A stretch of 58,963 nt of DNA from Candidatus Limnocylindria bacterium (GTDB lineage: Bacteria > Chloroflexota > Limnocylindria > QHBO01), in NCBI GenBank assembly GCA_038253355.1, contig JBBSHF010000002.1, positions 1-58,963 on the forward strand, in the 5' to 3' direction. The position numbers were made by a program, and so were the translations under genes. The notes under the pieces are model-generated. The model did no database searches and was not told the DNA's origin. It saw only the letters and a program-made list of their open reading frames with translations. Of this stretch, positions 6,286 through 55,764 are shown in pieces. How positions within the stretch are numbered: the first letter of the stretch is position 1; every line of letters starts with the position of its first letter.

Positions 6286-6337
6286 CCAACATCTCGAGAT
6301 AGACCGATGCGGCCCGCTCCACGGAGTGGGCCGTTTG

Positions 6338-6353
6338 GCATTCTTTAGAATGC
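6338..6353. promoter_or_regulatory. perfect 16-bp palindrome GCATTC-TTTA-GAATGC overlapping a TAGAAT -10 box upstream of polX
   Basis: Read directly. TAGAAT at 6346-6351 lies 7 nt before the ATG at 6359. An outer GGCATTC (6337-6343) pairs with GAATGCC (6357-6363). Confidence 0.45.
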
Positions 6354-6358
6354 AGGGA

Positions 6359-8110
6359 ATGCCTCGACCGCGTTCTGCTCCACGCAGCGCCGATGCCGCC
6401 ATCAGCAACGGCGACCTGGCGCGTATCTTCAGCGAGATCGCCGACATGCTCGAGATCATGGGCGAGGTGGTCTACAAGTCGGTCGCCTACCGCCGCGTTG
6501 CCGATGCCGTGGAGCGCTATCCCGATGACGTCGCCGCGTTGTTCCGACGTGGCACGCCGCCGAAGCTGCCCGGCGCCGGCGCGGCGCTGACCGCCAAGCT
6601 GGCCGAGCTGGCCGAGACCGGCCAGCTCGAGTACCACGCGCGGCTGCGTGCCCAGGTACCCGATGGGTTGCTCGACATGCTGCGCATTCCGGGGGTCGGG
6701 CCACGCACCGTCAAGATGCTGCACGGCGAGCTGGGAATCGACTCCGTCGACGCGCTGCGCGTCGCGGCCGAGCAGGGCCTGCTGCGTGGCCTGAAAGGGC
6801 TCTCCGCCCGGACCGAGGAGAACGTGCTGGCCGGCATCAGCCGTATCGAACAGCGCGGCAGTCGCCTGCTGCTCCACGACGCCGATGCGCTGATGCAAGG
6901 GCTGCTCGCCCGCCTGGGCCAGGTGCGCGGCGTGGTGCGCATGGAGGCCGCCGGCTCGCTGCGACGGCGGCGTGCCACCATCGGCGACCTCGATCTGCTC
7001 GCGGCGGTCGAGGACGCGGCTGCGCTGATCGCCGCGCTGGACGGCCTGCCGGAGGTCGATCACATCGTCTCTGCCGGCATCGATAAGTCGAGCATCGTGC
7101 TGCGTGACGGACCGCAGGTCGACCTGATGGTCTGCCCGCCCGCCGCGTGGGGCACCCACCTGGTGCACTTCACCGGCAGCAAGGGGCACAACGTGGCCCT
7201 GCGCGGACGCGCGCTGGCACGCGGGTGGTCGCTCTCCGAGAAGGGGTTCAAGGTGGTTGACAGCGGCGAGCTGCTGCTCTCCGACAGCGAGGAGGAGGTC
7301 TACGCCCGGCTCGAGATGGACTGGGTGCCCCCCGAGCTGCGCGAGGACAGCGGCGAGATCCAGGCGGCCGCCGAGCGCTTACTGCCCCGACTGCTGACCC
7401 TTGACGACGTGTGCGGCGATACGCACACCCATTCCGACTGGACCGATGGCGTCGACTCGATGGGGGCCATGGCGCGCGCAGCCCGCGCGCTGGGACGCGA
7501 GTGGATGGTCCTGACCGATCACTCGCCCTCGCTCGGCATCACGCGCGGCCTTTCGCGGGAGCGCATCGCTGAGCAGGGCGCCGAGATCGCCCGGTTGAAC
7601 GGGGAGCTCGCGCCGTTCCGCATCCTGCATGGCACCGAGATGGAGATCCGCTCCGACGCATCCCTGGATTACCCCGACGACCTGCTCGCCGGCTTCGACG
7701 TCGTCGTCGCCAGCGTCCACACCGGCCGTGGGCAATCGGTCGAGCAGCTGACCGCGCGGGCGCTGTCGGCGATCGAGAACCCGCACGTCGACATCCTGGC
7801 CCATCCCACCGGAAGGATCGTCAATCGCCGAGAGCCGATGGTGCTCGACTGGCCGCGCGTCTTCGAGGCCGCCGCGCGTACCGGTACCATGCTCGAGCTC
7901 AACGGCAGCCCGCGGCTGGACCTCGACGATGTGCTGGCGCGCGCGGCGGGCGCTGCCGGGGCGCGGCTGACGGTGTCCAGCGACGCGCATCGGACCGAGG
8001 AGCTGGGTCAGCTGCGTTACGCGGTCTCCATGGCGCGCCGCGCCTGGCTGACTCCCGGCCAGGTCCTCTCGACGCGTTCCGCCGACGCGCTGCTCGAGCT
8101 CGTCCGATGA
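6359..8110 (+). CDS. polX: DNA polymerase X family protein with C-terminal PHP domain
   Basis: N-terminal HhH/Pol-beta-like region (NGDLARIFSEIADMLE, GVGPRTVKML, GSLRRRRATIGDLDLL). C-terminal PHP motifs (GDTHTHSDWTDG, TDHSP, SDAHR). The start is uncertain (6326 GTG, 6350 or 6359 ATG); 6359 fits the TAGAAT-N7-ATG leaderless pattern. Confidence 0.85.
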   Translation: MPRPRSAPRSADAAISNGDLARIFSEIADMLEIMGEVVYKSVAYRRVADAVERYPDDVAALFRRGTPPKLPGAGAALTAKLAELAETGQLEYHARLRAQVPDGLLDMLRIPGVGPRTVKMLHGELGIDSVDALRVAAEQGLLRGLKGLSARTEENVLAGISRIEQRGSRLLLHDADALMQGLLARLGQVRGVVRMEAAGSLRRRRATIGDLDLLAAVEDAAALIAALDGLPEVDHIVSAGIDKSSIVLRDGPQVDLMVCPPAAWGTHLVHFTGSKGHNVALRGRALARGWSLSEKGFKVVDSGELLLSDSEEEVYARLEMDWVPPELREDSGEIQAAAERLLPRLLTLDDVCGDTHTHSDWTDGVDSMGAMARAARALGREWMVLTDHSPSLGITRGLSRERIAEQGAEIARLNGELAPFRILHGTEMEIRSDASLDYPDDLLAGFDVVVASVHTGRGQSVEQLTARALSAIENPHVDILAHPTGRIVNRREPMVLDWPRVFEAAARTGTMLELNGSPRLDLDDVLARAAGAAGARLTVSSDAHRTEELGQLRYAVSMARRAWLTPGQVLSTRSADALLELVR

Positions 8111-8886
8111 TGGCGCGCATGTTCGATGGCAAGCGAGCGAACCAGGTGCTGCAGCGCATCGATCGGCCCGAGGCGATCGGGCTGGCGGTGGTGCTCGCGG
8201 CGCTGGTGGCCATCGGCTGGTTCGTTGCGCCCTTCTGGCTGGCAGTCATGGTCGCGGCCCAGCTGGCGATCGCCGGACTCGGAGGCGTGCACCTGATCGG
8301 TGCGGCGCGCCCGGGGATGGGCTTTGCGCGCTATGCGACGCTGGCGATCGCGGCCGTGGCGCTCACCCTGTTTGGCCGCCTGCTGCCCGGTGGCGTGGCG
8401 CTGCTGCTCATTCCGGTGGTGGCCGTCCTGCTCTGGTCGGTCCTGTCGCTCGAGCTGCGGGCGGCGCGTGGCGTCGGCGCGCGGACGATGCTCGACCTGG
8501 CGCTGGTCGGCATCCTGTTCGCCGGAGCGTCGGGCATCTGGCATCTGTTCGGTGAGAATGCGTGGCCGCCGCCGCTGGTCCCGGTGCTGCTGCTCGCATT
8601 CGTCGTGGCCCTCCGTTCCGCCGAGGCGCGCGGTTGGGGCGGGATCGAAGCGGTCGGCCAGGCCGCGCTGCACGTTCTCGCGGTGGGTCAGGTCGGCGCC
8701 GCGCTGGTACTGCTCGATCTGCCCGGCCTGGTGGCACCCGCAATCGTGGCGCTGACCTTCCACGCGTGGGGCGGCGCCGTCGAAGCACTGCAGGAAGGCG
8801 CGTCGCTGCGCAGCGTGGCACTCGAGTTCGGAACGTTGGGGTTACTCGGCCTGATCGTGGCATTCCTCCTGCATCAGCCCGCGTGA
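8107..8886 (+). CDS. polytopic membrane protein, hypothetical
   Basis: 259 aa with about 7 hydrophobic segments and GC3-rich codons. ATGA overlap with the polX stop. Confidence 0.6.
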   Translation: MMARMFDGKRANQVLQRIDRPEAIGLAVVLAALVAIGWFVAPFWLAVMVAAQLAIAGLGGVHLIGAARPGMGFARYATLAIAAVALTLFGRLLPGGVALLLIPVVAVLLWSVLSLELRAARGVGARTMLDLALVGILFAGASGIWHLFGENAWPPPLVPVLLLAFVVALRSAEARGWGGIEAVGQAALHVLAVGQVGAALVLLDLPGLVAPAIVALTFHAWGGAVEALQEGASLRSVALEFGTLGLLGLIVAFLLHQPA

Positions 8887-8926: not shown

Positions 8927-8955
8927 TTGACACTCGGCAGAGGCGGTGCTACAAC
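8927..8955 (+). promoter_or_regulatory. candidate sigma-70-type promoter TTGACA-17-TACAAC
   Basis: TTGACA at 8927-8932, an exact 17-nt spacer, then TACAAC at 8950-8955. It lies ~80 nt upstream of the TPR gene ATG. Confidence 0.4.
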
Positions 8956-9036
8956 AAGGCGCCCTTCCGCCGGGTCAGCCCGAGTCGGAGGGCCTTTCTG
9001 CGCATAACACCCACCTAGCGGAGACGTTGATCAACG

Positions 9037-9897
9037 ATGACGCTCGGGGAAGTCGACACCATCAACCGCCAGCGCCGCCAACTCGGCGACGCCGCCATCG
9101 GGCACGCCACCCGGGGCGACTGGGAGGAAGCGGTCGAAGCCAACCGGCAGCTTCTGGAGCTCGGTCCGGATACCGATACCTATAACCGCCTGGGCAAGGC
9201 GCTCGCCGAGCTTGGACGTGACGTCGACGCGCTCGACGCATATGAGCAGGCGCTCGCGCGCGACAGCACGAACCGGATCGCGGAGCGCAACGTCGAGCGC
9301 CTGCGCGTCCTGGTCGCCACTCGCACGGCCGGCAGTGCCGCGGCCAAGAAGCCGTCCGGCGCGAAGGGCAAGAACATCAAGCCGGAGAAAGCATCGGCTG
9401 CCCACTTCATCGAGGAGATGGGCAAGACCGGCCACGCGCGACTGATCAACCTGGCGGCGCCGCGCGAGCTCGCACTGCTCTCGCCGGGCGATGCCGTGCA
9501 TCTCGAGATCGAGGGTGAGCAGCTGGTGGCACACAGCGGCGAGACGCAGGTTGGTCAGCTGGAGCCCCGCGTCGGGACGCGTCTGGTCAAGCTGATGCAC
9601 GCCGGCAATCGGTACGAGGCAGCCATCACGGTGCTGCAGAACGACGACCTGCGGATCATCATTCGCGAGGTGTTCGGCCACCCGTCGAACTTCGGCAAGG
9701 TTTCCTTCCCGGGCACCGCGGCCTCGCGTGCCGGTGACGTCCGACCGTACATGAAGGGCACCGCGCTCCGCTACGATGACGACGAGGAGAGCGAAGAGCC
9801 CGACGAGGATGCGGAGGAGGTCGAGGAGCTCGACACGACCCTTCCGGAATTCTCGACCGAGCCAGAGCTCGAGGAAGATCTGCTCGAAGAATCGTAG
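9037..9897 (+). CDS. TPR-repeat protein with central beta-rich module and strongly acidic C-terminal tail
   Basis: TPR-like helices (GDWEEAVEANRQLLELGPDTDTYNRLGKALAELGRDVDALDAYEQALARD). The tail is YDDDEESEEPDEDAEEVEELD...EPELEEDLLEES. Confidence 0.75.
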   Translation: MTLGEVDTINRQRRQLGDAAIGHATRGDWEEAVEANRQLLELGPDTDTYNRLGKALAELGRDVDALDAYEQALARDSTNRIAERNVERLRVLVATRTAGSAAAKKPSGAKGKNIKPEKASAAHFIEEMGKTGHARLINLAAPRELALLSPGDAVHLEIEGEQLVAHSGETQVGQLEPRVGTRLVKLMHAGNRYEAAITVLQNDDLRIIIREVFGHPSNFGKVSFPGTAASRAGDVRPYMKGTALRYDDDEESEEPDEDAEEVEELDTTLPEFSTEPELEEDLLEES

Positions 9898-9903
9898 GAG
9901 CCC

Positions 9904-12702
9904 ATGTGCGCGGCTGACCGGAAGCGACTTGATCACGTCGTCCTTCCGCGTCGGCGCGCCGGCCTGGCCTTGCTCGAGCGCTACTTTCCATCCCCCGCTG
10001 ACAACCTGCTCGACGCCGAGCTGAGCTCCTTCGCACGCCCCGGCGACACGGTGCTGGATCCGTGGGCGGGGACCGGCTGGACCGCGCGCCGCGCGATCGC
10101 ACAGGGAGTGCGCGCGGTCGCCGCCGATCCAAGCCCGTTCGCCCAGCTCGCCGGCCAGGCGTTTCTGTTGGCGCCCGATCCAGCGGTCATCGATGCCGGC
10201 TTCGCGCAGCTCGCCGCTTCGCGTCGTGTCGACGTGCCGTTGCGCCAGCATGTCGAGGAGCTGTACGCCACCCACTGTGCCGCCTGCCGCCGTCCGGTGG
10301 TGGGCGAGCAGTTCATCTGGCCCGGTGACGCCGATGCGCCGGGTCGCAAGCTCTACCGATGTCCAAGCTGTGACGCGTCGGTGGGCGGTCCGATCGAGCG
10401 CGTCGCGGCGGTCGACGAGGCCGATCTCGCCAAGCTCGGGATCGACCGTCGCCCGTCGCCATCCGACGAGTCGCTTGCCCCCGACCCGTCACTCGACGCG
10501 GAGGACGACCTGCCGCCGGCACCGGTGGGCCTGACCGGGTCGTCGCTGGGTGAGCCCGGTGGTCCCCCTCCACCGATCGCGGTTCAACCCGATCCACCCG
10601 GCGGCGCGGCATCCACGGCAGGACCACGCTGGGCGTCGACGGTGCATCCCGATCCGGCTCCGCTCGCGGGAGGTGACGTGCGCCAGGGCCTGCACTATCA
10701 GCAGCTGCACGAGCGCTTTCCGGTGCTCGACGGCAGAGGGGAGCTGATCGATGAGCTGCTTGGGCTGTACTCGCCGCGCAACCTGTATGCGCTGCAGGTC
10801 ATCGCCAACAAGATCGACGCGGAGTTTCACGATCAGCCGATGGCCGCGGTCCTGCGCCTGGCGCTGGCCGCCTGCCTGTTGCCGGCCAGCAAGCTGAACG
10901 GCTATCCGGGGCGGGTCGCCTCGCTGCGGATCGCCAACGGCCACGTCCGCCAACCGGCGTCCCGCCATCAGCGCGAGGTCAACGTCTGGCGGCTCTTCGA
11001 GTCGGCGGTGGCTGACGTGCGCACGGCGCTGGCATCGGCTGCCGGCGACCGCAAGCCGGCTCGCTTCGCCAGCGATTTCGCCGATCTCGGCGGCGTGCGA
11101 GCCGCCAACGTCTTCTGGGTGCGTTGTCGGCCGGCTGTGGTGGGCCAGTACCTGCCCACGGAGAGCGTGGACCTCGTGTTGGGGTCCACCGGCGCCTCGC
11201 CGAGCCTCGACGAATTGAGCTTCGAATACCTCGCCACGGCCTGGCTGATGGGCCGCGAGGCCGCCGAGACGCTGCGCCTGGAGCCGCTCTTCGGTACGCC
11301 GATCGGCCAGAACGACGGCACCGAGGCGACCGCGCTGCGTCACGCCATGGCATCGGCGGCCGGAGCCCTGAAGCCCGATGGCTGGTTCAACGTGGTGCTC
11401 GATGGCGAGGACGTCGATCGCATGCTGAGCGTGGCGGTGGCCGCGGCGCTGGCCGGTCTCGAGCTCGTCGACGTCATTCCTCGCGAGTCGCGGCGTTCGG
11501 GGGACGGCGCCAGCCTCCACTTCCGCAAGCCCTCCGCGGAGGACCGTTTGCGCGCCGCTGTCCAGCCGGGCCCGCTGCGTCTGGGCAGTGCCGGGGAGCG
11601 GCTGACCTACCCGGAGCTGGCCGAGGCGATGGATCGTGCGGCGACCGACCTGCTGCGCGATCGGGGCGAGCCGGCCGGGCTCGCTCGCATCGCGGCCGCG
11701 GTACTCCTGGAGCTGCAACGCCGCGGGTTGCTGCGGCGCGTGGCCCTGCTGCGAGCCAACGGTGAGCCGCGGACCGAGGCCGACATCGAGCAGCAACAGA
11801 CTGACGAGCGGCTCGACCGCGGTGGCTCGGCCCTCCTGGCCAAGCTGCTGCGCGAGGAGCTCTGGCGTGACGACCATCCGGCCCTGCTCCGTCTCGGCGA
11901 GGCGGAGCGTCCGCAGTGGTGGCTGAGACAACCCGAGCTCGCCAATTCGCCGCTCGCCGATCGCGTGGAGTGGGCGACCTTCTCGATCCTGTCGACGGCA
12001 GGCGGCCTCGACGAGGATGCCTTCCTGGATCGCATCTACGCGCTCTTCCCGGGGCTTGCGGCGCCCGATGAGGAGCTGGTGCGCGCCTGCCTGGCGGCCT
12101 ATGCATCGGTCGGCGAGCGCGGCCAGCTGCGGACGGAGGATGATCTGGCGCGTCGGCTGGATGACCACGCGCGGATCATCGGCCTGCTGAGCGACTACGG
12201 GCACCGCGTCGGCCTGCGAGTGTGGATCAGCAAGCGCGAGCAGTCGCGTCGCCTCGACGGCGCCACGCTGGGGGAGGGGCTTCGTGAGGAGGAGCAACGC
12301 GCCTATCTCCCGCTGGTGGTGCGCGCTCCAGCCGAGGCGCTCGGCGCCGTGGACGTCATTTGGTACGCGCGCGGCCGCCTCGCCTTCCTGTTCGAGGTGG
12401 AGTGGACCGCCATGGTTGGCGAGGCGGTGCTGCGGCGCGGTCGATCCATTCCGCCGACCGAGCAGCAGGCGCGCTTCGTGGTGGTCCCCGCCGAGCGAGC
12501 CGAGCTGCTGCGGCTCAAGCTCGAGCGGTCACCGTGGCTGCGCGCCGAGATGGAGCGCCAGAACTGGTACGTCCTCAAGTGGCGGCATCTCGAGAGCCTG
12601 GCCGGGCGGGACGGAGCAAGCCTGGAATGGCTCGAACCGGTGCTTGGACTCGACCCGCTGATCGAGCGTGGCGGGCAGCAGCTGACCATGTTCGGGGAGT
12701 AG
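9904..12702 (+). CDS. large Zn-ribbon methyltransferase-like protein with degenerate motif IV and C-terminal PD-(D/E)xK-like core
   Basis: AGGAG lies 5 nt upstream. Motif-I-like block GDTVLDPWAGTGWTARRA. CxxC..CxxC at 10276-10371. Motif-IV position reads VDLVLGSTGASP, followed by ALKPDGWFNVVLDGED. C-terminus VDVIWYARGRLAFLFEVEWT. The antisense ORF 10489..12297 is an R/G/Q-rich shadow. Confidence 0.75.
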   Translation: MCAADRKRLDHVVLPRRRAGLALLERYFPSPADNLLDAELSSFARPGDTVLDPWAGTGWTARRAIAQGVRAVAADPSPFAQLAGQAFLLAPDPAVIDAGFAQLAASRRVDVPLRQHVEELYATHCAACRRPVVGEQFIWPGDADAPGRKLYRCPSCDASVGGPIERVAAVDEADLAKLGIDRRPSPSDESLAPDPSLDAEDDLPPAPVGLTGSSLGEPGGPPPPIAVQPDPPGGAASTAGPRWASTVHPDPAPLAGGDVRQGLHYQQLHERFPVLDGRGELIDELLGLYSPRNLYALQVIANKIDAEFHDQPMAAVLRLALAACLLPASKLNGYPGRVASLRIANGHVRQPASRHQREVNVWRLFESAVADVRTALASAAGDRKPARFASDFADLGGVRAANVFWVRCRPAVVGQYLPTESVDLVLGSTGASPSLDELSFEYLATAWLMGREAAETLRLEPLFGTPIGQNDGTEATALRHAMASAAGALKPDGWFNVVLDGEDVDRMLSVAVAAALAGLELVDVIPRESRRSGDGASLHFRKPSAEDRLRAAVQPGPLRLGSAGERLTYPELAEAMDRAATDLLRDRGEPAGLARIAAAVLLELQRRGLLRRVALLRANGEPRTEADIEQQQTDERLDRGGSALLAKLLREELWRDDHPALLRLGEAERPQWWLRQPELANSPLADRVEWATFSILSTAGGLDEDAFLDRIYALFPGLAAPDEELVRACLAAYASVGERGQLRTEDDLARRLDDHARIIGLLSDYGHRVGLRVWISKREQSRRLDGATLGEGLREEEQRAYLPLVVRAPAEALGAVDVIWYARGRLAFLFEVEWTAMVGEAVLRRGRSIPPTEQQARFVVVPAERAELLRLKLERSPWLRAEMERQNWYVLKWRHLESLAGRDGASLEWLEPVLGLDPLIERGGQQLTMFGE

Positions 12703-12749
12703 CGGCCAAGCGCTCGGCGACCGCTTGACCCGCGACGTACACTCAGCCC

Positions 12750-12782
12750 GGGAGTGCCGTGGTTCCCCCCTGCGGCACTCCC
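12750..12782. terminator. bidirectional hairpin between convergent genes (GGGAGTGCCG / CGGCACTCCC)
   Basis: A perfect 10-bp stem with a 13-nt loop and no U-tract. Confidence 0.5.
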
Positions 12783-13238: not shown

Positions 13239-13964
13239 ATGAGTCCCATCGAGAAGCATGAGCTGGTCAGCCCACTGGAGCGCGCGCTGGTGATCGTCAG
13301 CCATCCCGACGACGCGGAGTTCGGTGCCGCGGCGACCATCGCGGCGCTCACCGGCGCCGGCGTGCGAGTCGACTACGTGGTCACCACCGACGGCGGCAAG
13401 GGGACCGATGATCCGGCGGTCACCCCCGAGCAGCTGAGCGCCACGCGGACCGCCGAGCAGCGCGCCGCGGCGGACGTGCTGGGCGTCAGCGAGATCGTGC
13501 ATCTCGGCTATCCCGACGGCTATCTGACCCCGTCGCTCGACCTGCGGCGAGATGTCACGCGCCAGATCCGCCGCTTCCGCCCGGACCTGGTGCTGACTCA
13601 GAACCCGCAGCGGCGGCTCGACCACAATCCGTTCATCGGGCATCCGGATCATCTCGCCACCGGCGAGGCCACGCTCGCCTCGGTATACCCCGCAGCGCGC
13701 GACCGCCTGAATTTCCCCGAGCTGCTCGACGAGGGGCTCGAGCCATGGAAGGTGCGACAGGTCCTGCTCTCCGGCGTCGAGGAGCCGAACCTGTGGATCG
13801 ACGTCGCCGCCACCTTCGACACCGGAGTGCAGGCGCTGCTGCGCCACGCCAGCCAGATTGGGGATCGCGACGTCGAAACCCGGGTGCGCGAGCGGGCCGA
13901 GCTGGTCGGAGCGCCGCAGGGGATCGGCCTGGCGCAGGCGTTCCTCTCGATCATCCTGGAATGA
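13239..13964 (+). CDS. PIG-L (LmbE-like) family deacetylase
   Basis: VIVSHPDDAEFGAAATIA and HPDH motifs. Confidence 0.8.
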   Translation: MSPIEKHELVSPLERALVIVSHPDDAEFGAAATIAALTGAGVRVDYVVTTDGGKGTDDPAVTPEQLSATRTAEQRAAADVLGVSEIVHLGYPDGYLTPSLDLRRDVTRQIRRFRPDLVLTQNPQRRLDHNPFIGHPDHLATGEATLASVYPAARDRLNFPELLDEGLEPWKVRQVLLSGVEEPNLWIDVAATFDTGVQALLRHASQIGDRDVETRVRERAELVGAPQGIGLAQAFLSIILE

Positions 13965-15874
13965 CGCGCCGCGGCGGGCACTGGGGATCCGGACCGGAGC
14001 CGGATCTGACGGCACGTCCGGGCAGCGCGCGCCCAACGCTGCGGCGCATCGTCGCGTTCTTCTCTCCGTATCGCGGACGCCTGGCGGTCATCGCCTGCTC
14101 GATCGTGGTCACGGTCAGCATCGGTGTCGTCAACCCGATCCTGATCAAGCTGATCATCGACAACCTGCTCGGTCCGAGGGACTTCGGCCTGCTCTACCTG
14201 CAGACCGGGCTGATGATCGTGCTGCCGATCATCACCAGCCTCATCGGTGTCGGACAGTCGTACCTGTCGAACGTGGTCGGTCAGAACGTCATGAACGACC
14301 TGCGCCTGGCCCTCTACAGCCACCTGCAGTGGATGCCACTGCGCTTCTTCACCGAGACACGCACGGGCGAGATCCAGAGCAGGGTGGGAAACGACGTGAA
14401 CGGCGTGCAGTCGGTGGTGACCGATACCGCCGCTGCGCTGCTCTCGAACTTCGCGACGGTGACGACGACGGTCATCGCCATGCTGATCATCGACTGGCGG
14501 CTCACCGCGCTGAGCCTGGGCATGCTGCCGATCTTCGCCTACATCACCTACCGCGTCGGCAAGGTGCGGCGCCAGGTCTCGGCGCTGACCCAGCAGTCGA
14601 TGGCCGAGGTGAGCGCCATCACCGAAGAGTCGCTCTCCGTGTCGGGGATCCTGCTCTCGAAGACCTTCGGCCAGCAGCAGGCCTCCATCGACAGGTTCGG
14701 GCGCGAGTCGCGGCGGCTCGGCGACCTGCAGATCCGGCAGCAGATGATCGGCCGATGGTTCTTCGCCCTGATCGGCACCTTCTTCTCGATCAGCCCGGCG
14801 CTCGTCTACCTGCTTGCGGGGATCCTGATCATCGGTGGCGACCTGCGCATCACCATCGGCACGATCGTGGCCTTCACGACGCTGCAGTCGCGCCTCTTCT
14901 TCCCGATCGGGCAGCTGCTCGGCGTGCAGGTCGAGATCCAGGGCGCGCTGGCGCTCTTCGATCGCATCTTCGAGTACCTCGAGATGCCCCGCGAGATCAC
15001 TGACGCGCCCGACGCGGTCGCGCTTGACTCGTCACACGCCCGCGGTGACGTGGCATTCGAGCACGTCTCCTTCGGCTATCCGGTGGCCCCCGCCCAGGTC
15101 GCGGTGGCGAGCGAGGTGGCGGAGGCCGAGGCGAGTGGTCGCGCGGTTCCGACGGCGCTGCGTCCCTTCTCCCTGCAGGACGCCAGCTTCGGGGCGCGCT
15201 CCGGCCAGCTGGTGGCGCTGGTCGGGCCATCAGGGGCAGGCAAGACCACCACGACCTACTTGATCCCGCGGCTCTACGACGTGGACGCCGGTGCCGTGCG
15301 AATCGATGGCATTGACGTGCGCCACATCCGGCTGGAGTCGCTGGGACAGGTGATCGGCATGGTCACCCAGGAGACCTATCTGTTCAATACCAGCGTCGTC
15401 GACAACCTGCGCTACGCCAGGCCCGGCGCGACCATGGCCGAGATCGAGGACGCGGCGCGTGCGGCGGCGATCCACGATCGGGTCATGGAGCTGCCCGACG
15501 GCTACGACACTGTCGTGGGGGAGCGCGGCTACAAGCTGTCGGGAGGCGAGAAGCAGCGCGTGGCGATCGCCCGTGTCCTGCTCAAGAATCCACGCGTCCT
15601 GATCCTGGATGAGGCGACATCCGCACTCGACACGGTCAGCGAGCGGCTCATTCAGCTGGCCCTGGCGCGGCTGATGGAGGGCCGCACCACGATCGCCATC
15701 GCGCACCGCCTGTCCACGATCCTGCGCGCCGACCAGATCCTGGTCCTGGATCGCGGGCGCATCGTCGAGCGCGGCACGCACCAGGAGCTGCTGCGCCACG
15801 AGGGCCTCTACGCGCGCCTCTACCACGAGCAGTTCGTCTCGGGCATGACCGAGCCGACTGCCCGGGTGGTCTGA
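13961..15874 (+). CDS. ABC transporter, fused permease/ATP-binding exporter (MsbA-like)
   Basis: Six-TM domain followed by an NBD ([35 protein letters not shown]). Start set at the ATG in ATGA overlap with the upstream stop. Confidence 0.85.
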
Positions 15875-29873: not shown

Positions 29874-30909
29874 TGAGCGACTCCTCGGCCGCCCAGCGCC
29901 GCCACGCGGGCGCAGCGATCGCCTGCATCGCGTCCAGCGCCCCGCGTGGCGCGAAGCCGCGGCGGAAGCCATTCAGCGCGATCTCGGCCAGCTCGCCGCG
30001 GCTCAGGCCGACTGCCGCCGCGGTGCGTACCAGCTCAACGGTCAGCGAGGTGTCACTCACCGTGCGGTCATCGGTCGAGAGCGTGACGCTCACCCCGCCC
30101 CGATGCAGTGACGCCAGTGGATGGCCGGCCAGGTCGGCCACGATCCCGGCCTGCACATTGCTGGTCGGGCACATGTCGAGGTTGACGTCGCGCTCGCGCA
30201 GCAGCTCGACGATCGCCGGGTCCTGGGCGGCGGTGACGCCGTGCGCGATGCGTGTCACGCCCAGGTCCAGTGCCTCGCGGATGTGCTGCGGGCCCGGTAT
30301 CTCACCGGCATGCGCAGTCAGCCCCAGCCCGCCCGCCTCTGCGGCGCGGAAGGCGGCGGCGTGCGGCGGCATCGGGTATTCCGCCTCCGGCCCGGCCAGG
30401 TCGAAGCCGATCACCGGGGCGCCAAAGGCCGCAGCCGCGTGTGCCAGGGCGACGTTGGCGGCGGGTGGATGCGAGCGCATGGCGGTCACGATCAGCCCGA
30501 CCAGCGGCATGGCCGGACCGATGGACTGCGCCGCTTCGGCGATCCCCAGCGCCACCGCCTCGATGACCTCGTCGACGGACAGGCCGCCCTGCAGGTGCAG
30601 GCGTGGCGCCCAGCGGATCTCTGCGTACGCCAGGCCGTCGGTCGTCATGTCGGCGATCAGCTCGGCCGTCGTGCGGCGCAGGGCGCCCGCGGTCTGCAGC
30701 AGGGCGATCGGCAGGTCGAAGTAGGTGAGCAGCTCGGCCTGGTTCGCGCATCGTCGCGGCGCGACCATCCGGACGCGTGCCTGCTGGAGCGTCAGCTCCA
30801 TCCCCATCTCGTGCGCCAGCTCGACCGCCGTGGCTGGTCGCATGGCGCCATCGAGGTGCAAGTGCAGCTCGGCCTTGGGCAGCACGCGAATCGCGGCGAG
30901 CGGGTCCAC
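29866..30909 (-). CDS. add: adenosine deaminase
   Basis: LPKAELHLHLDG, LTAHAGE, RIAHG and STDD motifs. Start set at the GTG at 30909, 6 nt after a minus-strand TATCAT (30921-30916). The upstream ORF extension is Arg-rich shadow. Confidence 0.8.
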   Translation of the reverse strand: MDPLAAIRVLPKAELHLHLDGAMRPATAVELAHEMGMELTLQQARVRMVAPRRCANQAELLTYFDLPIALLQTAGALRRTTAELIADMTTDGLAYAEIRWAPRLHLQGGLSVDEVIEAVALGIAEAAQSIGPAMPLVGLIVTAMRSHPPAANVALAHAAAAFGAPVIGFDLAGPEAEYPMPPHAAAFRAAEAGGLGLTAHAGEIPGPQHIREALDLGVTRIAHGVTAAQDPAIVELLRERDVNLDMCPTSNVQAGIVADLAGHPLASLHRGGVSVTLSTDDRTVSDTSLTVELVRTAAAVGLSRGELAEIALNGFRRGFAPRGALDAMQAIAAPAWRRWAAEESLIS

Positions 30910-30915
30910 CGCGGC

Positions 30916-31827
30916 ATGATACGGGGACGCTCGCCGGCTGACAGAACGCCGTCGCGTCGAACGGCCGTGGTGCTGGGTGCGGTGGCGGTGTGCGGTCTTG
31001 GCCTCCTGCTCGGGCTGCGCCCCGCCGACCCCAGCCGCGCCGATCCCGCAGCAGCGGCCGCCTACCGGCAGCAACTCAGCGCGACGGCCGGCGGAGCCGA
31101 CGCGGCGATTCGGCGTTTTGACGATGACCTGCGTGCGGCTCTCGAGTCGGCGCGGCAGGGAGCGGCTGACACGGTCAGCGGCGATGAGCCGCCCGGCCCC
31201 CGCCTGGTCGCCGCCGCGGATCAGATCGAGGCGCTCGGCGATCGCCTGTACGCCGCTCGGGCGGCGCTCGGGCGGGTGTCATCACTGCTGGCCATCCACG
31301 GCGAGACCGATGCACCCCGGTTGAGTCTCGGTACCGGGGACCTGGCCGCCATTGGCCAGGAGCTGCGCGGAACCGCTGCGCCGTCCGACGATTTCGCCGC
31401 CATGCGGCGCAGCAGCCAGGCAGTGCTGGCGGAACTGCGGGCAGCGCTGATCGCCACGGACGCCGGGCATGCGAAGGTGGCCCTCGCGGCGGTGACGGCC
31501 GGGGAGCAGCGCCTGGCCGAGGTGCGTGCCTACGATGAGCAGCTCGTCACCCTGCCCGTCTGGGCGGAGACCAGCGGCGCGCTGCTCGCGGCATTGCGTG
31601 ACCTGGCCCGCGCCCGGGTCGACCACGATGTCGAGGGGGAGCGCACGGCATTGCGCTCCTATGCGCGCGCCGCAGCCAGCGCGGCGCAGGCCGATCGCGG
31701 CCTGGCGATCGCGCTGGCGGAGGGCGGTGCCGCGATCGCGCGCAGCCCGCTCGGCGGACTTGCCGACGCGCTCGCGCAGATCGAGGATGCGCGTGCCGCA
31801 TTGGCACCGCTCCTGCATCAGGAATGA
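30916..31827 (+). CDS. membrane-anchored Ala-rich hypothetical protein
   Basis: N-terminal TM helix (AVVLGAVAVCGLGLLLGL) followed by a helical Ala/Arg-rich region. ATGA overlap with the kinase gene. The start is uncertain. Confidence 0.5.
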   Translation: MIRGRSPADRTPSRRTAVVLGAVAVCGLGLLLGLRPADPSRADPAAAAAYRQQLSATAGGADAAIRRFDDDLRAALESARQGAADTVSGDEPPGPRLVAAADQIEALGDRLYAARAALGRVSSLLAIHGETDAPRLSLGTGDLAAIGQELRGTAAPSDDFAAMRRSSQAVLAELRAALIATDAGHAKVALAAVTAGEQRLAEVRAYDEQLVTLPVWAETSGALLAALRDLARARVDHDVEGERTALRSYARAAASAAQADRGLAIALAEGGAAIARSPLGGLADALAQIEDARAALAPLLHQE

Positions 31828-33167
31828 GCGTGCCGCCGCATAGCGCCGACCTGGGCCCGTCGGGCGGGCTGCCCATGGCATCCGACTCGGCACCCGACCC
31901 GTTGCTCGGTCAGGTGCTTGGCAGGCGGTATCGCATCGCTGGCCTGCTGGCGCGCGGCGGCATGGCGCACGTCTACCGCGCCCGCGATGCGCGCCTGGAT
32001 CGGGACGTGGCGCTCAAGGTGCTGTCGCGCCCGTATGCCGACAGCGCGGACTTTGGCAGCCGCTTCCGCGCGGAGGCCCGCGCAGCGGCGTCGCTCTCCC
32101 ATCTGAACCTGGTTCACGTCTATGACTCTGGCGCCGAGGGTGAGCTGCGCTATATCGTCATGGAGCTGCTCGAGGGATATCGGTCATTGCGAACGGAGAT
32201 CGCCGAGCGCGAGCGGCTGGCCTCCGCAGAGGCGGTGGGCATCGCGCGCGAGGTGCTCGCCGGGCTGCAGGTGGTTCACGCCCACGGTCTGCTGCATTGC
32301 GATGTGAAGGCCGCCAACGTGATGGTCGGCTCCGGGCCGACCAAGCTGATCGATTTCGGGATTGCTCGTGCTCCGCACGCTGTCACGCAGGACGGCACGT
32401 CGCTGGGATCGCTGCATGCCATGGCACCGGAGCAGCTGCGCGGCGAGGAGCTGACCGCCGCCGCCGACCTGTTCGCGGTGGGCGCGGTGCTCTACGTCGC
32501 GCTCACCGGCCGCGTGCCGTTCGCTGGCGAGGATCCGGCGCAGGTCGCCGCGGCGCAGGCGTCGGGGCACCCGACGCCGCCCTCAGAGCTGGTCGCCGGC
32601 ATTGGTCCGCGGCTCGACCAGGTGGTGCTGCAGGCGCTCGAGACAGAGCCGGCGCTGCGATTTCATTCGGCGAGCGAGATGTCGCGCGCGCTCGACGAAG
32701 CCTCCGGCGACCCGCAGCCGGGCGCGCCGCCCGCGGACGAGACGACCCAGCTGGTTCGCCTCGCTCGACGACCGCGGGGACGCCACGTGAGCCGGCCGCG
32801 CCGTCAATGGGCGGTTCCTGTGCTGGCCGTGGCGGTGCTTGCCGCAGGCGTGGTGCTCGGGATTGGGCTGGGCCTCAACGGCGGTTTGGGCCGATCGACC
32901 CGCGGCGGTGTGCCGCGTGCCGCAGATGCATCGTCGGCACAGCCCACCCCGAGCCTGGCCCCGGGCAAGGTCCGCGTGCCGAAGACGATTGGCCTGAGCG
33001 AGAAGCAGGGCGAAGCGCTTGGACGGGCCGCCGGGTTGGAGTGGACCATCCGCTGGCAGGAATCGGCCGAACAGAGCCCCGGCATCTACGACCAGCAGCC
33101 GTCCACCGGCACCATCGTCGACACGGGCTCGCGGTTCACCATGTTTGCGTATCGGCCGCCCGGCTGA
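31824..33167 (+). CDS. Ser/Thr protein kinase with one C-terminal PASTA domain
   Basis: GGMAHVYRARD..VALKV, HCDVKAANVMV and DFGIAR motifs, a TM helix, then a PASTA-like VPKTIGLSEKQGEALGRAAGL... Confidence 0.85.
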   Translation: MSVPPHSADLGPSGGLPMASDSAPDPLLGQVLGRRYRIAGLLARGGMAHVYRARDARLDRDVALKVLSRPYADSADFGSRFRAEARAAASLSHLNLVHVYDSGAEGELRYIVMELLEGYRSLRTEIAERERLASAEAVGIAREVLAGLQVVHAHGLLHCDVKAANVMVGSGPTKLIDFGIARAPHAVTQDGTSLGSLHAMAPEQLRGEELTAAADLFAVGAVLYVALTGRVPFAGEDPAQVAAAQASGHPTPPSELVAGIGPRLDQVVLQALETEPALRFHSASEMSRALDEASGDPQPGAPPADETTQLVRLARRPRGRHVSRPRRQWAVPVLAVAVLAAGVVLGIGLGLNGGLGRSTRGGVPRAADASSAQPTPSLAPGKVRVPKTIGLSEKQGEALGRAAGLEWTIRWQESAEQSPGIYDQQPSTGTIVDTGSRFTMFAYRPPG

Positions 33168-41508: not shown

Positions 41509-42073
41509 GCCGGCGCCGCCGCTCGATGCGTGGCTCGCCGAGCTGGGGGTCGAGGTGGTGGGCGCCAGCGGCTCGGCGCATGATCCTGCCTTCAGCCGCG
41601 ACGTCCTGCTCGATGGCGATCGGCGCTTCGACCTGCGTGTCACGCTCGCCTGGGTGGCGGGCGTGGGCCTGTCGCTGTGGGCCTACTACGGCCTCGAAGC
41701 CATGGAGATCCCCAAGAGGACCTATGGACGGATGCTGCGCGCCAACTTTGACTATCCATTCGTGAAGTTCGCCATGACCGATGATGATCGGCCGATGCTG
41801 ATGACCGAGCTGCCGGCCTCGGCCCTGGATCGCGAGCAGGTGGCCCGCGGCCTCGTGCGCCTGGTGGTCGTTGCCGACCGCCTCCTGGAAGAGACCGCCG
41901 CGGCGGTCGTCGATCGTGGCCAGCTCCCTGATTGGCGTGGCCGCGAGGGGCGAAACGGTGACCTGCTGGCCGCGTACCGAGCCGAGGTCGAGGCGGCCAT
42001 GCCGGCCTGGGAAGCACCGCTTCCGCGGCGCCGGCGGCGCGGACTCGTTACACGACTGCTGGGTGCTCGATGA
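41498..42073 (+). CDS. YbjN-like (putative sensory/chaperone-fold) hypothetical protein
   Basis: 191 aa, 11-nt overlap with glgC. YbjN-like pattern (RMLRANFDYPFVKFAMTDDDRPMLMTELP). Low-confidence family call. Confidence 0.5.
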   Translation: MTAEPAPPLDAWLAELGVEVVGASGSAHDPAFSRDVLLDGDRRFDLRVTLAWVAGVGLSLWAYYGLEAMEIPKRTYGRMLRANFDYPFVKFAMTDDDRPMLMTELPASALDREQVARGLVRLVVVADRLLEETAAAVVDRGQLPDWRGREGRNGDLLAAYRAEVEAAMPAWEAPLPRRRRRGLVTRLLGAR

Positions 42074-45129: not shown

Positions 45130-45528
45130 ATGGAGTCCCAGGCGCAGGATGAGCAGCAGCCGAGCGGCGAGCGCGAGTCCGCCTACGAGCTCTTTCGACG
45201 CGGGTCGCGGCTGCTGGCCGAACGGCATCCGGGTGCCGCCGCGGTGGTGCTCGAGCGGGCGTCGCGCCTCGAGCCGGGCAAGGCGTCGATCCTCGAGGCC
45301 CTCGGCCGCGCCTACTACAACCAGGGACAGCCGCAGCTGGCCGCCGAACGCTTCCGCCAGATCGTCGAGCGCGATCCACTGGCGCACTACAGCCATTTCG
45401 GCCTGGGCCTCAGCCTGCGGCGGCTGGGTGAGACCGATGCTGCGCGGCGCCATCTCAAGATGGCCGTCTCGCTGAAGCCGCAGATCGCGGACTATCGGCG
45501 CGCCCTGCAGCGCCTCGGGGCGGCGTAG
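45130..45528 (+). CDS. small TPR-repeat protein
   Basis: ILEALGRAYYNQGQPQLAAERFRQIVERDPLAHYSHFGLGLSLRRLGETDAARRHLKMAV. Confidence 0.7.
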   Translation: MESQAQDEQQPSGERESAYELFRRGSRLLAERHPGAAAVVLERASRLEPGKASILEALGRAYYNQGQPQLAAERFRQIVERDPLAHYSHFGLGLSLRRLGETDAARRHLKMAVSLKPQIADYRRALQRLGAA

Positions 45529-55241: not shown

Positions 55242-55244
55242 AGC

Positions 55245-55712
55245 GTGCCCGTCGTCCGCTACGCGGTTGCGGCGTTGCTGGGCCTGGCGCTCCTGGTGGG
55301 CGTGATGCTGCTGGTCCGGCCGCTCATCTTTTCGATGGCACCCGAACGCGGCGACCAGAACTACCCGGTGGCGGCCGCCGGCGACCTCGCGCGCGGCCCC
55401 ATCGTGCGCGAGGTGCTGCTCAACCACTCGCACGGGCTGATCGGCGAGCGGCCGAACGGTCAGCACGTGGCGCTGCGCCTGGTCATCGCTCCGGGGCCGG
55501 CCGGGAACGTGACGGTGGTCGACGCGTGGAGTTCGACCCACCACTGCGCGGTCGAGATCCACGTTGATCGGCTGCGCGATTGCGCGGGCGATGCATGGAC
55601 CTTCCAGGGCATCCCGATCGTCGCCAACGGTCCGCCACTGCAGCAATTCTCGGCGGTGGTTCGATCCGGCGCGGTGGTGGCCGATCTGACACACTCGCAG
55701 CCGGCGGGCTGA
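55245..55712 (+). CDS. membrane-anchored hypothetical protein
   Basis: N-terminal TM helix followed by a beta-rich region. It starts 3 nt after the phosphoesterase stop. Confidence 0.5.
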   Translation: MPVVRYAVAALLGLALLVGVMLLVRPLIFSMAPERGDQNYPVAAAGDLARGPIVREVLLNHSHGLIGERPNGQHVALRLVIAPGPAGNVTVVDAWSSTHHCAVEIHVDRLRDCAGDAWTFQGIPIVANGPPLQQFSAVVRSGAVVADLTHSQPAG

Positions 55713-55764
55713 CGCGGCACGCATCCTGCCCAGGCGGATCGCGAACGCGCACAAGGAGAAGAGC

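What the first reader, a model, noticed from the sequence alone, without database searches (positions are those of the whole stretch)
9037..12782. Self-contained two-gene module: TPR/acidic-tail protein plus a 932-aa Zn-ribbon methyltransferase-like / endonuclease-like fusion
The pair is bounded by a TTGACA-17-TACAAC promoter (8927-8955) and a perfect 10-bp hairpin (12750-12782). The two ORFs are 6 nt apart, with AGGAG overlapping the first stop codon. The ORF2 N-terminus (YFPSP..GDTVLDPWAGTGWTARRAIAQGVRAVAADPSPFAQLAGQAF) resembles the FPxxL / DPFxGSGTT SAM-binding block of N4/N6 DNA methyltransferases. It is followed by a CxxC..CxxC ribbon, a Pro-rich insert, a motif-IV-like block, an LKPDGWF block, about 250 aa of helical region and a D..EVE nuclease-like core. 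From memory, this order (motif I, Zn ribbon, distal motif IV plus an LSDFFYVWL-like helix) matches COG1743-type 'adenine methylase with Zn-ribbon' proteins of defence islands. Here there is no ATPase or helicase partner, and the coupled gene is a TPR protein. I know of no characterised system with this composition, so it is the best candidate for something undescribed in this window.
Basis: partly seen in the sequence, partly recalled or inferred. Interest (0 to 1): 0.75.

Follow-up and report, generated by a model that had tools for sequence, protein, structure and literature searches.

The report
Clamp-tethered dead-methylase/nuclease operon, Limnocylindria
A two-gene operon found at the same chromosomal position in every related Limnocylindria (Chloroflexota) genome examined encodes a small repeat protein and a large uncharacterised protein built from a probably inactive DNA-methylase module, a nuclease-like module and a tail that looks like the standard handle for the replication sliding clamp, so it looks like an undescribed DNA-maintenance factor and not a phage-defence system.

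Summary
ORF1 (9037-9897, TPR plus acidic tail) and ORF2 (9904-12702, 932 aa) are real genes, 6 nt apart, between a promoter and a hairpin. Both flanking elements are conserved in relatives.

ORF2 does derive from N6/N4 DNA methyltransferases and has a PD-(D/E)xK-like C-terminal domain. But the catalytic motif IV is absent and that loop is hypervariable. No DUF1156/COG1743 domain is detected.

The locus is not a defence island. In species-level Limnocylindria genomes, ORF1 lies directly upstream of ORF2 in 69/69 and PolX lies upstream in 61/61. ORF2 diverges at about the same rate as its neighbours. No relatives were found in viral, plasmid or phage collections.

New findings:
- The ORF2 family spans Chloroflexota, and intact members almost always end in Q-L-x-L-F. 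This is the canonical beta-clamp-binding motif (QLTMFGE here).
- The ORF1-ORF2 pairing persists in a sister clade at 37% identity.
- The downstream hairpin is a sequence-invariant plus-strand RNA stem-loop.

Best reading: a lineage-core, clamp-tethered DNA repair or processing factor. It would read DNA through a dead methylase module and may cut it, working with the TPR partner next to PolX. All evidence is computational.

The parts
8927..8955 (+). Promoter of the ORF1-ORF2 operon: TTGACA, 17-nt spacer, TG-C-TACAAC (extended -10 type)
   Evidence: Read directly. The -35 hexamer, the spacing and the TG-N-TACAA core are conserved in 13 of 13 relatives while the flanks vary. Not listed by the consensus scan because the -10 ends in C.
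9037..9897 (+). ORF1, 286 aa: TPR region, conserved middle domain of unknown fold, conserved acidic tail
   Evidence: Homologues are 57-90% identical across Limnocylindria. It is 45% identical to the partner gene in a sister clade.
9079..9306 (+). ORF1 TPR region (about residues 15-90)
   Evidence: Pfam TPR_1 33.6 bits and TPR_2 33.7 bits, both above cut-off. PDB profile hits are confined to residues 17-91 of ORF1.
9385..9771 (+). ORF1 middle domain (about residues 117-245), highly conserved, with no family or PDB sequence match
   Evidence: Alignment A5. No Pfam family reaches its cut-off here; the only match in this stretch is TPR_21, E 0.0041 and below cut-off. No PDB match.
9772..9894 (+). 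ORF1 acidic C-terminal tail, conserved in sequence (EVEELDTTLPEFSxEPELEEELLEE)
9896..9900 (+). AGGAG ribosome-binding site for ORF2, overlapping the ORF1 stop codon
   Evidence: The same 6-nt gap is seen in L001 and L003.
9904..12702 (+). ORF2, 932 aa, member of a Chloroflexota-wide uncharacterised family
9904..10233 (+). ORF2 methyltransferase-like N-lobe. Motif I is DPWAGTG (residues 52-58) and the acidic motif II residue is D75; both are conserved within the clade
10261..10383 (+). ORF2 four-cysteine zinc ribbon (C125, C128, C153, C156)
   Evidence: All four cysteines are invariant or near-invariant in the whole family.
10441..10689 (+). ORF2 proline-rich, probably disordered insert, specific to the Limnocylindria clade. 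It carries short conserved motifs (DDLPPAPVGL, GEPGGPP, ASTV)
   Evidence: The region has pLDDT below 50 in the full-length model, which is low-confidence over most of ORF2.
10690..11568 (+). ORF2 methyltransferase-like second half. Strand VDLVL is followed by a degenerate motif IV loop (residues 427-431, nt 11182-11196), then LKPDGWF (489-495)
   Evidence: Aligned to DPPY of relative P0379. The loop is hypervariable in the clade.
11569..12138 (+). ORF2 helical and winged-helix-like region (residues 556-745), with conserved RGEP and PLADRVEW blocks
   Evidence: Model m25bdf966fc1e, pLDDT 91.9. Weak fold matches to winged-helix-containing proteins.
12139..12618 (+). ORF2 PD-(D/E)xK-like domain (residues 746-905), with D817 and E831-V-E833
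   Evidence: Secondary-structure order helix, 3 strands, helix, strand. Precomputed PF27126 NmeDI_C. PADLOC REase_II E 0.045. Weak fold matches to NucS, EcoT38I, N.BspD6I and MmcB-like proteins. Column counts.
12679..12693 (+). ORF2 C-terminal QLTMF, a candidate beta-clamp-binding motif in a flexible tail
   Evidence: A Q[LIM]x[LM][FL] motif lies at or near the C-terminus of nearly all intact family members. The last 10 residues have pLDDT about 54. Consensus QL(S/D)LF is taken from PMC9690074.
12750..12782 (+). Sequence-invariant RNA stem-loop in the 3' untranslated region of ORF2 (13-pair stem, loop UUCCCCC)
   Evidence: Found in 76/76 assessable genome loci. In 102 of 108 assessable metagenome loci it lies downstream of an ORF2 homologue. 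98.6% of cells are paired, with two compensatory pairs and many G-U pairs that fit the + strand only. No Rfam match reaches its family threshold.
6326..8110 (+). Context: PolX-family DNA polymerase (Pol beta-like plus PHP domains), always upstream
   Evidence: Present in 61/61 loci. Also linked in the sister clade.
8107..8886 (+). Context: 259-aa hydrophobic (probably membrane) protein with no family match. Its start overlaps the PolX stop by 4 nt

Best explanation
This is a lineage-core chromosomal operon of Limnocylindria, not a mobile defence module.

A conserved sigma-70-type extended -10 promoter drives ORF1 and ORF2. The two genes are translationally close-coupled, and the transcript ends at or carries a conserved 3' stem-loop.

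ORF2 belongs to a Chloroflexota-wide family descended from an N6/N4 DNA methyltransferase with an inserted zinc ribbon. In the window protein the cofactor-binding motif I is kept, but the catalytic (D/N/S)PP(Y/F/W) loop is gone. I therefore infer that this module no longer methylates and serves as a DNA-reading module, perhaps a base-flipping or SAM-sensing one. It is followed by helical and winged-helix-like domains and a PD-(D/E)xK-like domain with D...ExE residues. The protein ends in a flexible tail carrying QLTMF.

I infer that the tail docks ORF2 onto the beta sliding clamp. ORF2 would then act on newly replicated or repair-intermediate DNA. It would recognise a feature through the methylase-derived module and, in this clade, nick or cut the DNA. 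The neighbouring PolX would be a plausible gap-filling polymerase. The TPR/acidic-tail protein would be its adaptor or inhibitor; the tail could act as a DNA mimic.

Shown: gene structure, homology of the domains, loss of motif IV, conservation of the tail motif, the synteny, and the conserved promoter and RNA hairpin.

Inferred: clamp binding, nuclease activity, the repair role, and the role of ORF1.
For: Fixed, lineage-wide locus:
- ORF1 is directly upstream in 69/69 species-level genomes and PolX is upstream in 61/61.
- Mean identity is ORF2 68.8%, PolX 73.4% and ORF1 66.7%.
- The surrounding genes are housekeeping genes.
- No relatives in viral contigs, plasmids or phages.

Methylase descent and decay:
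- PF01555 is hit in 17/35 family members. One of them, P0379, reaches 76 bits and keeps DPPY.
- PDB profile hits cover the motif X/I region only.
- The motif IV position reads S-T-G-A and the loop is hypervariable.

Clamp motif:
- Q[LIM]x[LM][FL] lies at or within a few residues of the C-terminus in nearly all intact members, down to 25% identity.
- Q926, L927 and F930 are invariant in close clades.
- The tail has low pLDDT next to a confidently folded domain.
- The consensus QL(S/D)LF and the NucS precedent come from PMC9690074.

Nuclease-like domain.

Repair-flavoured neighbours in independent clades:
- PolX, and DinB_2 (a DinB-superfamily protein), in the sister clade.
- TPR-ORF2 in the sister clade.
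- A gene divergent from recA-recX, with a GAAC-N4-GTTC box 77 nt upstream.

Own conserved promoter and 3' RNA element.
Against: - There is no experimental evidence of any kind.
- The clamp motif is a five-residue pattern, and binding is untested.
- Fold searches gave no significant match. The best E-value was about 0.02, and the PD-(D/E)xK hits are weak.
- The classic lysine is replaced by glutamate. E831 and E833 are kept in only 38 and 45 of 77 family members. So nuclease activity is not a family-wide property and may be absent here too.
- The residues most conserved across the family are not catalytic ones. A purely structural or regulatory role therefore fits as well.
- The neighbours of distant relatives are mostly unrelated to DNA metabolism. 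The recA-linked box is a single case and may belong to recA.
- Motif I is strictly conserved in this clade. Some SAM-dependent chemistry through a non-canonical catalytic loop is therefore not excluded.
Confidence: 0.45

Rival explanations
1. ORF2 is a non-enzymatic scaffold or regulator. It would be a DNA- or chromatin-associated protein that uses dead methylase and dead or vestigial nuclease folds only to bind DNA. It would still ride on the clamp, for example to control replication, clamp unloading or polymerase traffic. ORF1 would act as an adaptor.
For: - The family-wide invariant residues are the zinc ribbon cysteines, R292, the E-x-N-x-W block, W820, R865 and the tail motif. They are not the catalytic residues of either enzyme fold.
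- Motif I GxG is lost in many distant members and motif IV in almost all.
- E831 and E833 are lost in about 40-50% of members.
Against: In the window's own clade, D817, E833 and the motif I residues are invariant and E831 is nearly so, across species whose ORF2 homologues are 61-87% identical to the window protein. That suggests these residues are still used.
Confidence: 0.2
2. ORF2 is an active, clamp-tethered orphan DNA methyltransferase that marks newly replicated DNA. This would be a bacterial analogue of PCNA-tethered DNMT1, or a Dam/CcrM-like housekeeping methylase, using a non-canonical catalytic loop.
For: - Motif I (DPWAGTG) and the motif II acid are strictly conserved in the clade.
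- The family contains members with full FxGxG and DPPY motifs that score well above the PF01555 cut-off.
- The housekeeping context and the clamp motif would fit a maintenance methylase.
Against: - The position aligned to DPPY is S-T-G-A, and the loop is hypervariable among close relatives.
- ORF2 scores 17.4 bits against a cut-off of 26.7.
- This reading does not explain the conserved nuclease-like domain.
Confidence: 0.12
3. The pair is a defence system. ORF2 would be a solitary Type IIG/IIL-like restriction-modification fusion, or a new anti-phage module, with the TPR protein as sensor.
For: - Methylase-like and restriction-endonuclease-like domains occur in one polypeptide. PADLOC MTase_II matches at E 4e-7 and REase_II at E 0.045, and NmeDI_C is found.
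- A DUF1156 methylase is a remote relative.
Against: - The locus has a fixed position and is universally present across species of the class, and it diverges at the same rate as its neighbours.
- No defence genes lie nearby.
- No relatives in viral, plasmid or phage collections.
- Without a catalytic motif IV the host could not protect its own DNA.
- Distant relatives are stand-alone genes in housekeeping contexts.
Confidence: 0.08

Closest known systems
Beta-class N6-adenine/N4-cytosine DNA methyltransferases (Pfam PF01555; M.RsrI, TTHA0409, CcrM, M.MboIIA)
   Same: The motif X/I/II region is homologous, with profile E-values of 4.5e-8 to 6e-3. The LKPDGWF block is typical of the fold. Some family members pass the Pfam cut-off and keep DPPY.
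   Different: - Motif I comes first and motif IV about 370 residues later, with a zinc ribbon and a helical region between them.
- Motif IV is lost in the window protein.
- About 380 extra C-terminal residues carry winged-helix-like and nuclease-like domains and a clamp motif.
COG1743 / DUF1156 'adenine-specific methylase with Zn ribbon' proteins
   Same: These are large methylase proteins. A Haloarcula DUF1156 methylase is a remote hit of the family profile, covering 14% of it at E 4.6e-18.
   Different: No DUF1156 domain is found in ORF2 or in 35 family members. ORF2 has a housekeeping context, a degenerate catalytic loop and a clamp motif.
NucS/EndoMS, the clamp-dependent mismatch endonuclease of Actinobacteria and Archaea
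   Same: NucS has a PD-(D/E)xK nuclease domain and a C-terminal clamp-binding motif that tethers the nuclease to the replication clamp (PMC9690074). There is a weak fold match to P. abyssi NucS, 2vld, probability 0.47.
   Different: There is no detectable sequence homology. ORF2 is about four times larger and has a methylase-derived module in place of the NucS N-terminal DNA-binding domain. No activity is known for ORF2.
Type IIG/IIL restriction-modification fusion enzymes and R.NmeDI (PF27126 NmeDI_C; PMC2095814)
   Same: A methylase fold and a restriction-type nuclease fold occur in one chain. The C-terminal domain matches the NmeDI_C model.
   Different: ORF2 is not in a variable island and has no catalytic motif IV. 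It is core to a bacterial class. It carries a clamp motif and has a TPR partner.
Eukaryotic DNMT1-PCNA (maintenance methylase tethered to the clamp; from general knowledge)
   Same: The concept is the same: a DNA-methylase-fold protein recruited to the replication clamp through a short peptide motif.
   Different: The lineage is unrelated, and the motif is a PIP box and not QLxLF. DNMT1 is catalytically active, whereas the window protein probably is not.

Membership tests
N6_N4_Mtase (PF01555) DNA methyltransferases | Motif I, F/W-x-G-x-G cofactor loop, with a downstream acidic motif II residue | tested here: met
   DPWAGTG (52-58) and D75 align to M.RsrI and TTHA0409. They are invariant in the clade.
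N6_N4_Mtase (PF01555) DNA methyltransferases | Catalytic motif IV, (D/N/S)PP(Y/F/W), after strand beta-4 | tested here: not met
   The position aligned to DPPY of relative P0379 reads S428-T-G-A431. The loop is hypervariable among close relatives.
N6_N4_Mtase (PF01555) DNA methyltransferases | Score above the Pfam gathering threshold | tested here: not met
   ORF2 scores 17.4 bits against 26.7. Distant relatives do pass: 76.2, 38.9 and 31.0 bits.
N6_N4_Mtase (PF01555) DNA methyltransferases | Methyl transfer to DNA | not testable with these tools
   Needs an in vitro assay or a methylome.
COG1743 / DUF1156 Zn-ribbon adenine methylases | N-terminal DUF1156 domain (PF06634) | tested here: not met
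   No hit in ORF2 at E up to 1, nor in any of 35 family members at E up to 0.01. The control protein P0452 does hit it.
PD-(D/E)xK nucleases | Core fold: helix, three strands, helix, strand | tested here: inconclusive
   A confident model (pLDDT 91.9) has this order of elements at residues 748-875. Foldseek matches to NucS, EcoT38I, N.BspD6I, MmcB-like and VRR-NUC proteins all have E above 0.01.
PD-(D/E)xK nucleases | Catalytic D ... (D/E)-x-K residues | tested here: inconclusive
   D817 and E831-x-E833 are present; glutamate replaces lysine, as in BamHI (from general knowledge). Conservation is 64, 38 and 45 of 77 family members.
PD-(D/E)xK nucleases | Profile match to a nuclease family | tested here: inconclusive
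   Precomputed PF27126 NmeDI_C is recorded on ORF2 and on many homologues, and is flagged weak where it is graded. PADLOC REase_II gives E 0.045. The model is not in the local Pfam copy.
Bacterial beta-clamp-binding proteins | QL(S/D)LF-type pentapeptide, usually C-terminal and in a flexible segment | tested here: met
   QLTMF at 926-930, two residues from the end. QLSLF, QLTLF, QLPLF or QIPLF occur in nearly all intact relatives. The tail has low pLDDT. The consensus is from PMC9690074.
Bacterial beta-clamp-binding proteins | Physical binding to DnaN | not testable with these tools
   Needs a binding assay or a complex prediction; no multimer prediction was available.
Anti-phage defence systems / restriction-modification | Patchy distribution, location in variable islands or on mobile elements, match to a known system | tested here: not met
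   Synteny is fixed: 69/69 and 61/61. No viral, plasmid or phage relatives. PADLOC gives only generic methylase-domain hits and one weak generic REase_II hit, with no hit for ORF1.
TPR proteins (ORF1) | TPR repeats above family threshold | tested here: met
   TPR_1 33.6 bits against 27.8, and TPR_2 33.7 against 27. The rest of ORF1, about 200 residues, has no match that reaches a family cut-off.

The most novel reading that the evidence does not exclude
The ORF2 family would be the nuclease/reader of a third kind of replication-coupled DNA correction pathway, specific to Chloroflexota. The two known kinds are MutS-MutL and NucS. A dead methyltransferase module flips and inspects bases on clamp-marked nascent DNA. 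A fused PD-(D/E)xK domain incises. PolX fills the gap. The TPR/acidic-tail protein gates the reaction.
Probability: 0.1. Interest if true: 0.85.

Novelty: new variant of a known kind. Interest (0 to 1): 0.58.

Why it matters
If the clamp link holds, this is an unstudied protein family with at least 1,600 sequence clusters. It is core to a widespread soil and freshwater bacterial class. The family would add a new client to the bacterial sliding-clamp interactome.

It would also show a DNA methyltransferase fold being reused as a non-catalytic DNA reader fused to a nuclease. DNA repair in Chloroflexota is largely inferred by homology, so a lineage-specific factor placed next to PolX would be a concrete, testable entry point.

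The finding also removes a false lead. The module should not be counted as a candidate defence system.

Tried and rejected
- The full-length AlphaFold model built from a shallow alignment was too poor to use (pLDDT 47.8). It was replaced by a C-terminal model built from a diverse alignment (pLDDT 91.9).
- Foldseek of that model against the PDB and BFVD gave no significant match. The nuclease assignment therefore stays provisional.
- Single-sequence and profile searches of the PDB found only the motif X/I region for ORF2 and only TPR repeats for ORF1.
- PHROGs gave nothing useful. NCBIfam gave nothing above cut-off.
- A literature search for PF27126 found nothing. Its name, NmeDI_C, came from a precomputed annotation.
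- The first genome scan with the very diverse alignment failed because it had no conserved stretch. The second returned only the closest 80 loci, all Limnocylindria. Distant contexts had to be taken from single look-ups.
- The third word-indexed protein search, with distant members, yielded almost no named organisms.
- I looked for LexA-type boxes upstream of ORF2 homologues and found one only in L210. I do not rely on it.
- I rejected the idea that the hairpin is a repeated REP-like element. It occurs once per locus and once in the window.
- I rejected the idea that it serves the convergent CsoR-like gene. Its G-U pairs fit the plus strand only, and it persists in L029, where no CsoR-like gene was detected next to ORF2.

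Full report
**Observation**

The window carries two co-oriented genes. ORF1 is 9037-9897 (286 aa) and ORF2 is 9904-12702 (932 aa). Both have a third-position GC of 0.84, like the other genes of this high-GC genome.

They are 6 nt apart, and AGGAG overlaps the ORF1 stop codon.

Upstream lie TTGACA (8927-8932), a 17-nt spacer and TACAAC (8950-8955). A TG lies one base before the -10 hexamer. The consensus scanner does not list this site because the -10 ends in C. In an alignment of 13 relatives, however, the -35 hexamer, the spacing and the TG-N-TACAA core are conserved while the rest of the intergenic region varies. I take it as a real extended -10 promoter.

Downstream, GGGAGTGCCGTGGTTCCCCCCTGCGGCACTCCC (12750-12782) folds into a 13-pair stem with a 7-nt loop.

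**Organism and locus**

All close homologues of both proteins come from metagenome-assembled genomes. Those with a source name are mostly labelled Candidatus Limnocylindria or Chloroflexota, and all are annotated as hypothetical or TPR proteins.

The best 80 loci were almost all labelled Limnocylindria, Chloroflexia or Chloroflexota. In these:
- ORF1 lies directly upstream of ORF2 in 69 of 69 loci with enough flank.
- A PolX-family polymerase lies upstream in 61 of 61.
- Where flank is available, a 259-aa hydrophobic protein, a convergent CsoR-like repressor and a PIG-L deacetylase are usually present in the same order. The latter two are each undetected in some loci.
- Mean identity to the window proteins is 68.8% for ORF2, 66.7% for ORF1, 73.4% for PolX and 76% for PIG-L. 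ORF2 therefore diverges like its neighbours.

The rest of the window is ordinary metabolism, transport and cell-wall genes. No relative of ORF2 was found in IMG/VR viral contigs, PLSDB plasmids or GenBank phages. This is not a variable defence island.

**ORF2, N-terminal two thirds**

ORF2 alone gives only sub-threshold hits to DNA methylases over residues 36-104: Pfam PF01555 at 17.4 bits against a cut-off of 26.7, PADLOC MTase_II at E 4e-7, and M.RsrI at E 0.003.

An exhaustive profile search found 1,623 representative clusters, 292 of them at E below 1e-30. Many are full-length proteins of 750-985 aa at 25-41% identity. The few that carry names are Chloroflexota, including Dehalococcoidales.

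A profile of this wider family matches TTHA0409 (4.5e-8), M.RsrI (2.5e-7), an N4-cytosine methylase, M.MboIIA and CcrM. Every match covers only the motif X/I region. Seventeen of 35 members hit PF01555 and none hits DUF1156.

One relative (P0379) scores 76 bits and keeps both FxGxG and DPPY followed by LSYLWLSW. The family therefore descends from a true methyltransferase. Aligned to that relative, the window protein reads VDLVLG-S-T-G-A where FT-D-P-P-Y stands. Among Limnocylindria this loop is the most variable stretch of the otherwise 78%-identical alignment.

Motif I (DPWAGTG) and the following acidic residue are invariant in the clade, but the GxG is lost in many distant members. The four zinc-ribbon cysteines are invariant or near-invariant throughout. 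The proline-rich insert (about residues 180-262) exists only in the Limnocylindria clade.

My inference is that the methylase fold is retained as a DNA- and perhaps SAM-binding module. Methyl transfer is unlikely.

**ORF2, C-terminal third**

A model of residues 556-932, built on a 77-sequence alignment, is confident (pLDDT 91.9, pTM 0.89). It shows helical and winged-helix-like units. These are followed, at about residues 748-875, by the helix, three strands, helix, strand order of PD-(D/E)xK nucleases. D817 starts the second of the three strands, and E831-V-E833 ends the third.

Foldseek found nothing significant. The weak matches include NucS (2vld, probability 0.47), EcoT38I, N.BspD6I, SfsA, MspJI and, among viral models, MmcB-like repair proteins (probability up to 0.9), VRR-NUC and Mrr.

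The collection's precomputed Pfam annotation places PF27126 (NmeDI_C) on ORF2 and on many homologues. R.NmeDI is a characterised Type II endonuclease (PMC2095814). PADLOC gives a REase_II match at E 0.045 over residues 755-863.

Across 77 family members, D817 is kept in 64, E831 in 38 and E833 in 45. W820 and R865 are almost invariant. The domain is nuclease-like. Activity is plausible in the window's clade but is not a family-wide property.

**The tail**

The most striking family-wide feature is the extreme C-terminus. QLSLF, QLTLF, QLQLF, QLPLF, QIPLF, QLALF or QMPLF lie at or within a few residues of the end in nearly every member whose C-terminus is intact. In the window it is QLTMFGE. Most sequences without the motif are fragments or appear frame-shifted.

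Q926, L927 and F930 are invariant in the closer clades. The tail is the only low-confidence part of the model's C-terminal region.

QL(S/D)LF at the C-terminus is the consensus beta-clamp-binding motif of bacterial replication and repair proteins. The clamp-dependent mismatch nuclease NucS is a precedent for a PD-(D/E)xK enzyme that uses it (PMC9690074). Binding is inferred, not shown.

**ORF1 and the pairing**

ORF1 has TPR repeats at residues 15-90. It also has a strongly conserved middle domain with no family or PDB match, and an acidic tail that is conserved in sequence and not only in composition.

The pairing extends beyond Limnocylindria. In a sister clade where ORF2 is 36-37% identical, a 288-aa TPR protein lies directly upstream. 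In another contig the order is PolX, two small genes, the TPR protein (45% identical to ORF1), an inverted DinB_2 gene, and then the ORF2 homologue.

More distant relatives (28-35%) stand alone among housekeeping genes. One is divergent from recA-recX, with a GAACCCATGTTC box 77 nt upstream of its start.

So ORF1 is a clade-level partner, not a family-wide one. DNA-repair neighbours recur but are not universal.

**The hairpin**

The 33-nt stem-loop is far more conserved than a terminator needs to be.
- It is present in 76 of 76 assessable species-level loci, in 17 sequence variants.
- It occurs once per locus and once in the window.
- In 102 of 108 assessable metagenome contigs that carry its 19-mer, it lies 32-219 nt after the stop codon of an ORF2 homologue. 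The six exceptions lack the second arm.
- Across the variants, 98.6% of cells pair, two pairs show compensatory double changes, and about 25 cells are G-U pairs that would be A-C mismatches on the other strand. It therefore functions as RNA on the ORF2 strand.
- The loop UCCCCC is invariant.
- No U tract follows it, and no Rfam family matches above threshold.

I regard it as a 3'-end stem-loop of the operon mRNA, acting as a terminator, a stabiliser or a protein-binding site. Which of these it is remains unknown.

**Interpretation**

The best-supported reading is a lineage-core operon for a clamp-tethered DNA-maintenance protein. The protein is built from a decayed methyltransferase, a zinc ribbon, winged-helix-like domains and a nuclease-like domain. 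It is partnered in this clade with a TPR/acidic-tail protein and sits next to PolX. I give this reading 0.45.

The rivals are:
- a non-enzymatic clamp-associated scaffold (0.2);
- an active clamp-tethered orphan methylase with a non-canonical loop (0.12);

**Novelty**

Each ingredient is known: methylase-nuclease fusions, clamp-tethered nucleases and pseudo-enzymes. I found no description of this combination as a core gene family. No source names the proteins beyond generic methylase or methyltransferase labels, and the full-text searches I ran turned up no description of it.

I file it as a new variant of known kinds, of moderate to good interest. The claims rest on sequence and predicted structure alone.

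Noticed in passing
window 12750-12782: The 'terminator' hairpin is a near-invariant 33-nt RNA stem-loop with loop UUCCCCC. It is always found just after ORF2 homologues. Compensatory and G-U changes fit only the plus strand. It has no U tract and no Rfam family. Its function is unknown.
   Followed up: yes
window 8956-8975: Just after the conserved -10 hexamer, the start of the 5' leader (AAGGCGCCCTT, a short imperfect palindrome) is also conserved in most relatives while the rest of the leader varies. It may be an operator or a leader structure.
   Followed up: no
window 6326-8886: The PolX gene stop overlaps by 4 nt the start of a 259-aa hydrophobic protein with no family match. This PolX-membrane protein coupling is conserved across the class. 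It is an odd partner for a repair polymerase.
   Followed up: partly
L210 7924-7935: A distant ORF2 relative (29% identical) lies divergent from recA-recX-rny-dnaG-rpoD. The only GAAC-N4-GTTC (LexA-type) box in the 18-kb locus sits 77 nt upstream of its start and about 240 nt from recA.
   Followed up: partly
window 10441-10689 (ORF2 residues 180-262): The proline-rich insert is specific to Limnocylindria but contains invariant short motifs (DDLPPAPVGL, GEPGGPP, ASTV-x-P). These look like linear peptide motifs and could be what the TPR partner binds.
   Followed up: no
proteins P0379 and P0443 (relatives, not in the window): A few family members keep canonical FxGxG and DPPY motifs and pass the methylase threshold, and P0379 ends in QLRLDSL. 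They may be active clamp-tethered methyltransferases that represent the ancestral state.
   Followed up: partly
window 30121-33167: A 568-aa protein with no Pfam match overlaps by 4 nt the start of a Ser/Thr protein kinase gene. This is a possible coupled pair.
   Followed up: no
window 42070-44037 and 54600-55823: Two further sizeable genes (655 aa and 407 aa) with gene-like codon bias have no Pfam match at E up to 1e-5.
   Followed up: no
window 13745-15874: The mechanical ORF for the ABC transporter (709 aa) overlaps the PIG-L gene by 220 nt. Relatives have 632-636 aa products that start at the end of the PIG-L gene, so the true start is probably further downstream.
   Followed up: no
window 45130-45528: A second, small (132 aa) stand-alone TPR protein follows a quinolinate phosphoribosyltransferase-like gene.
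   Followed up: no
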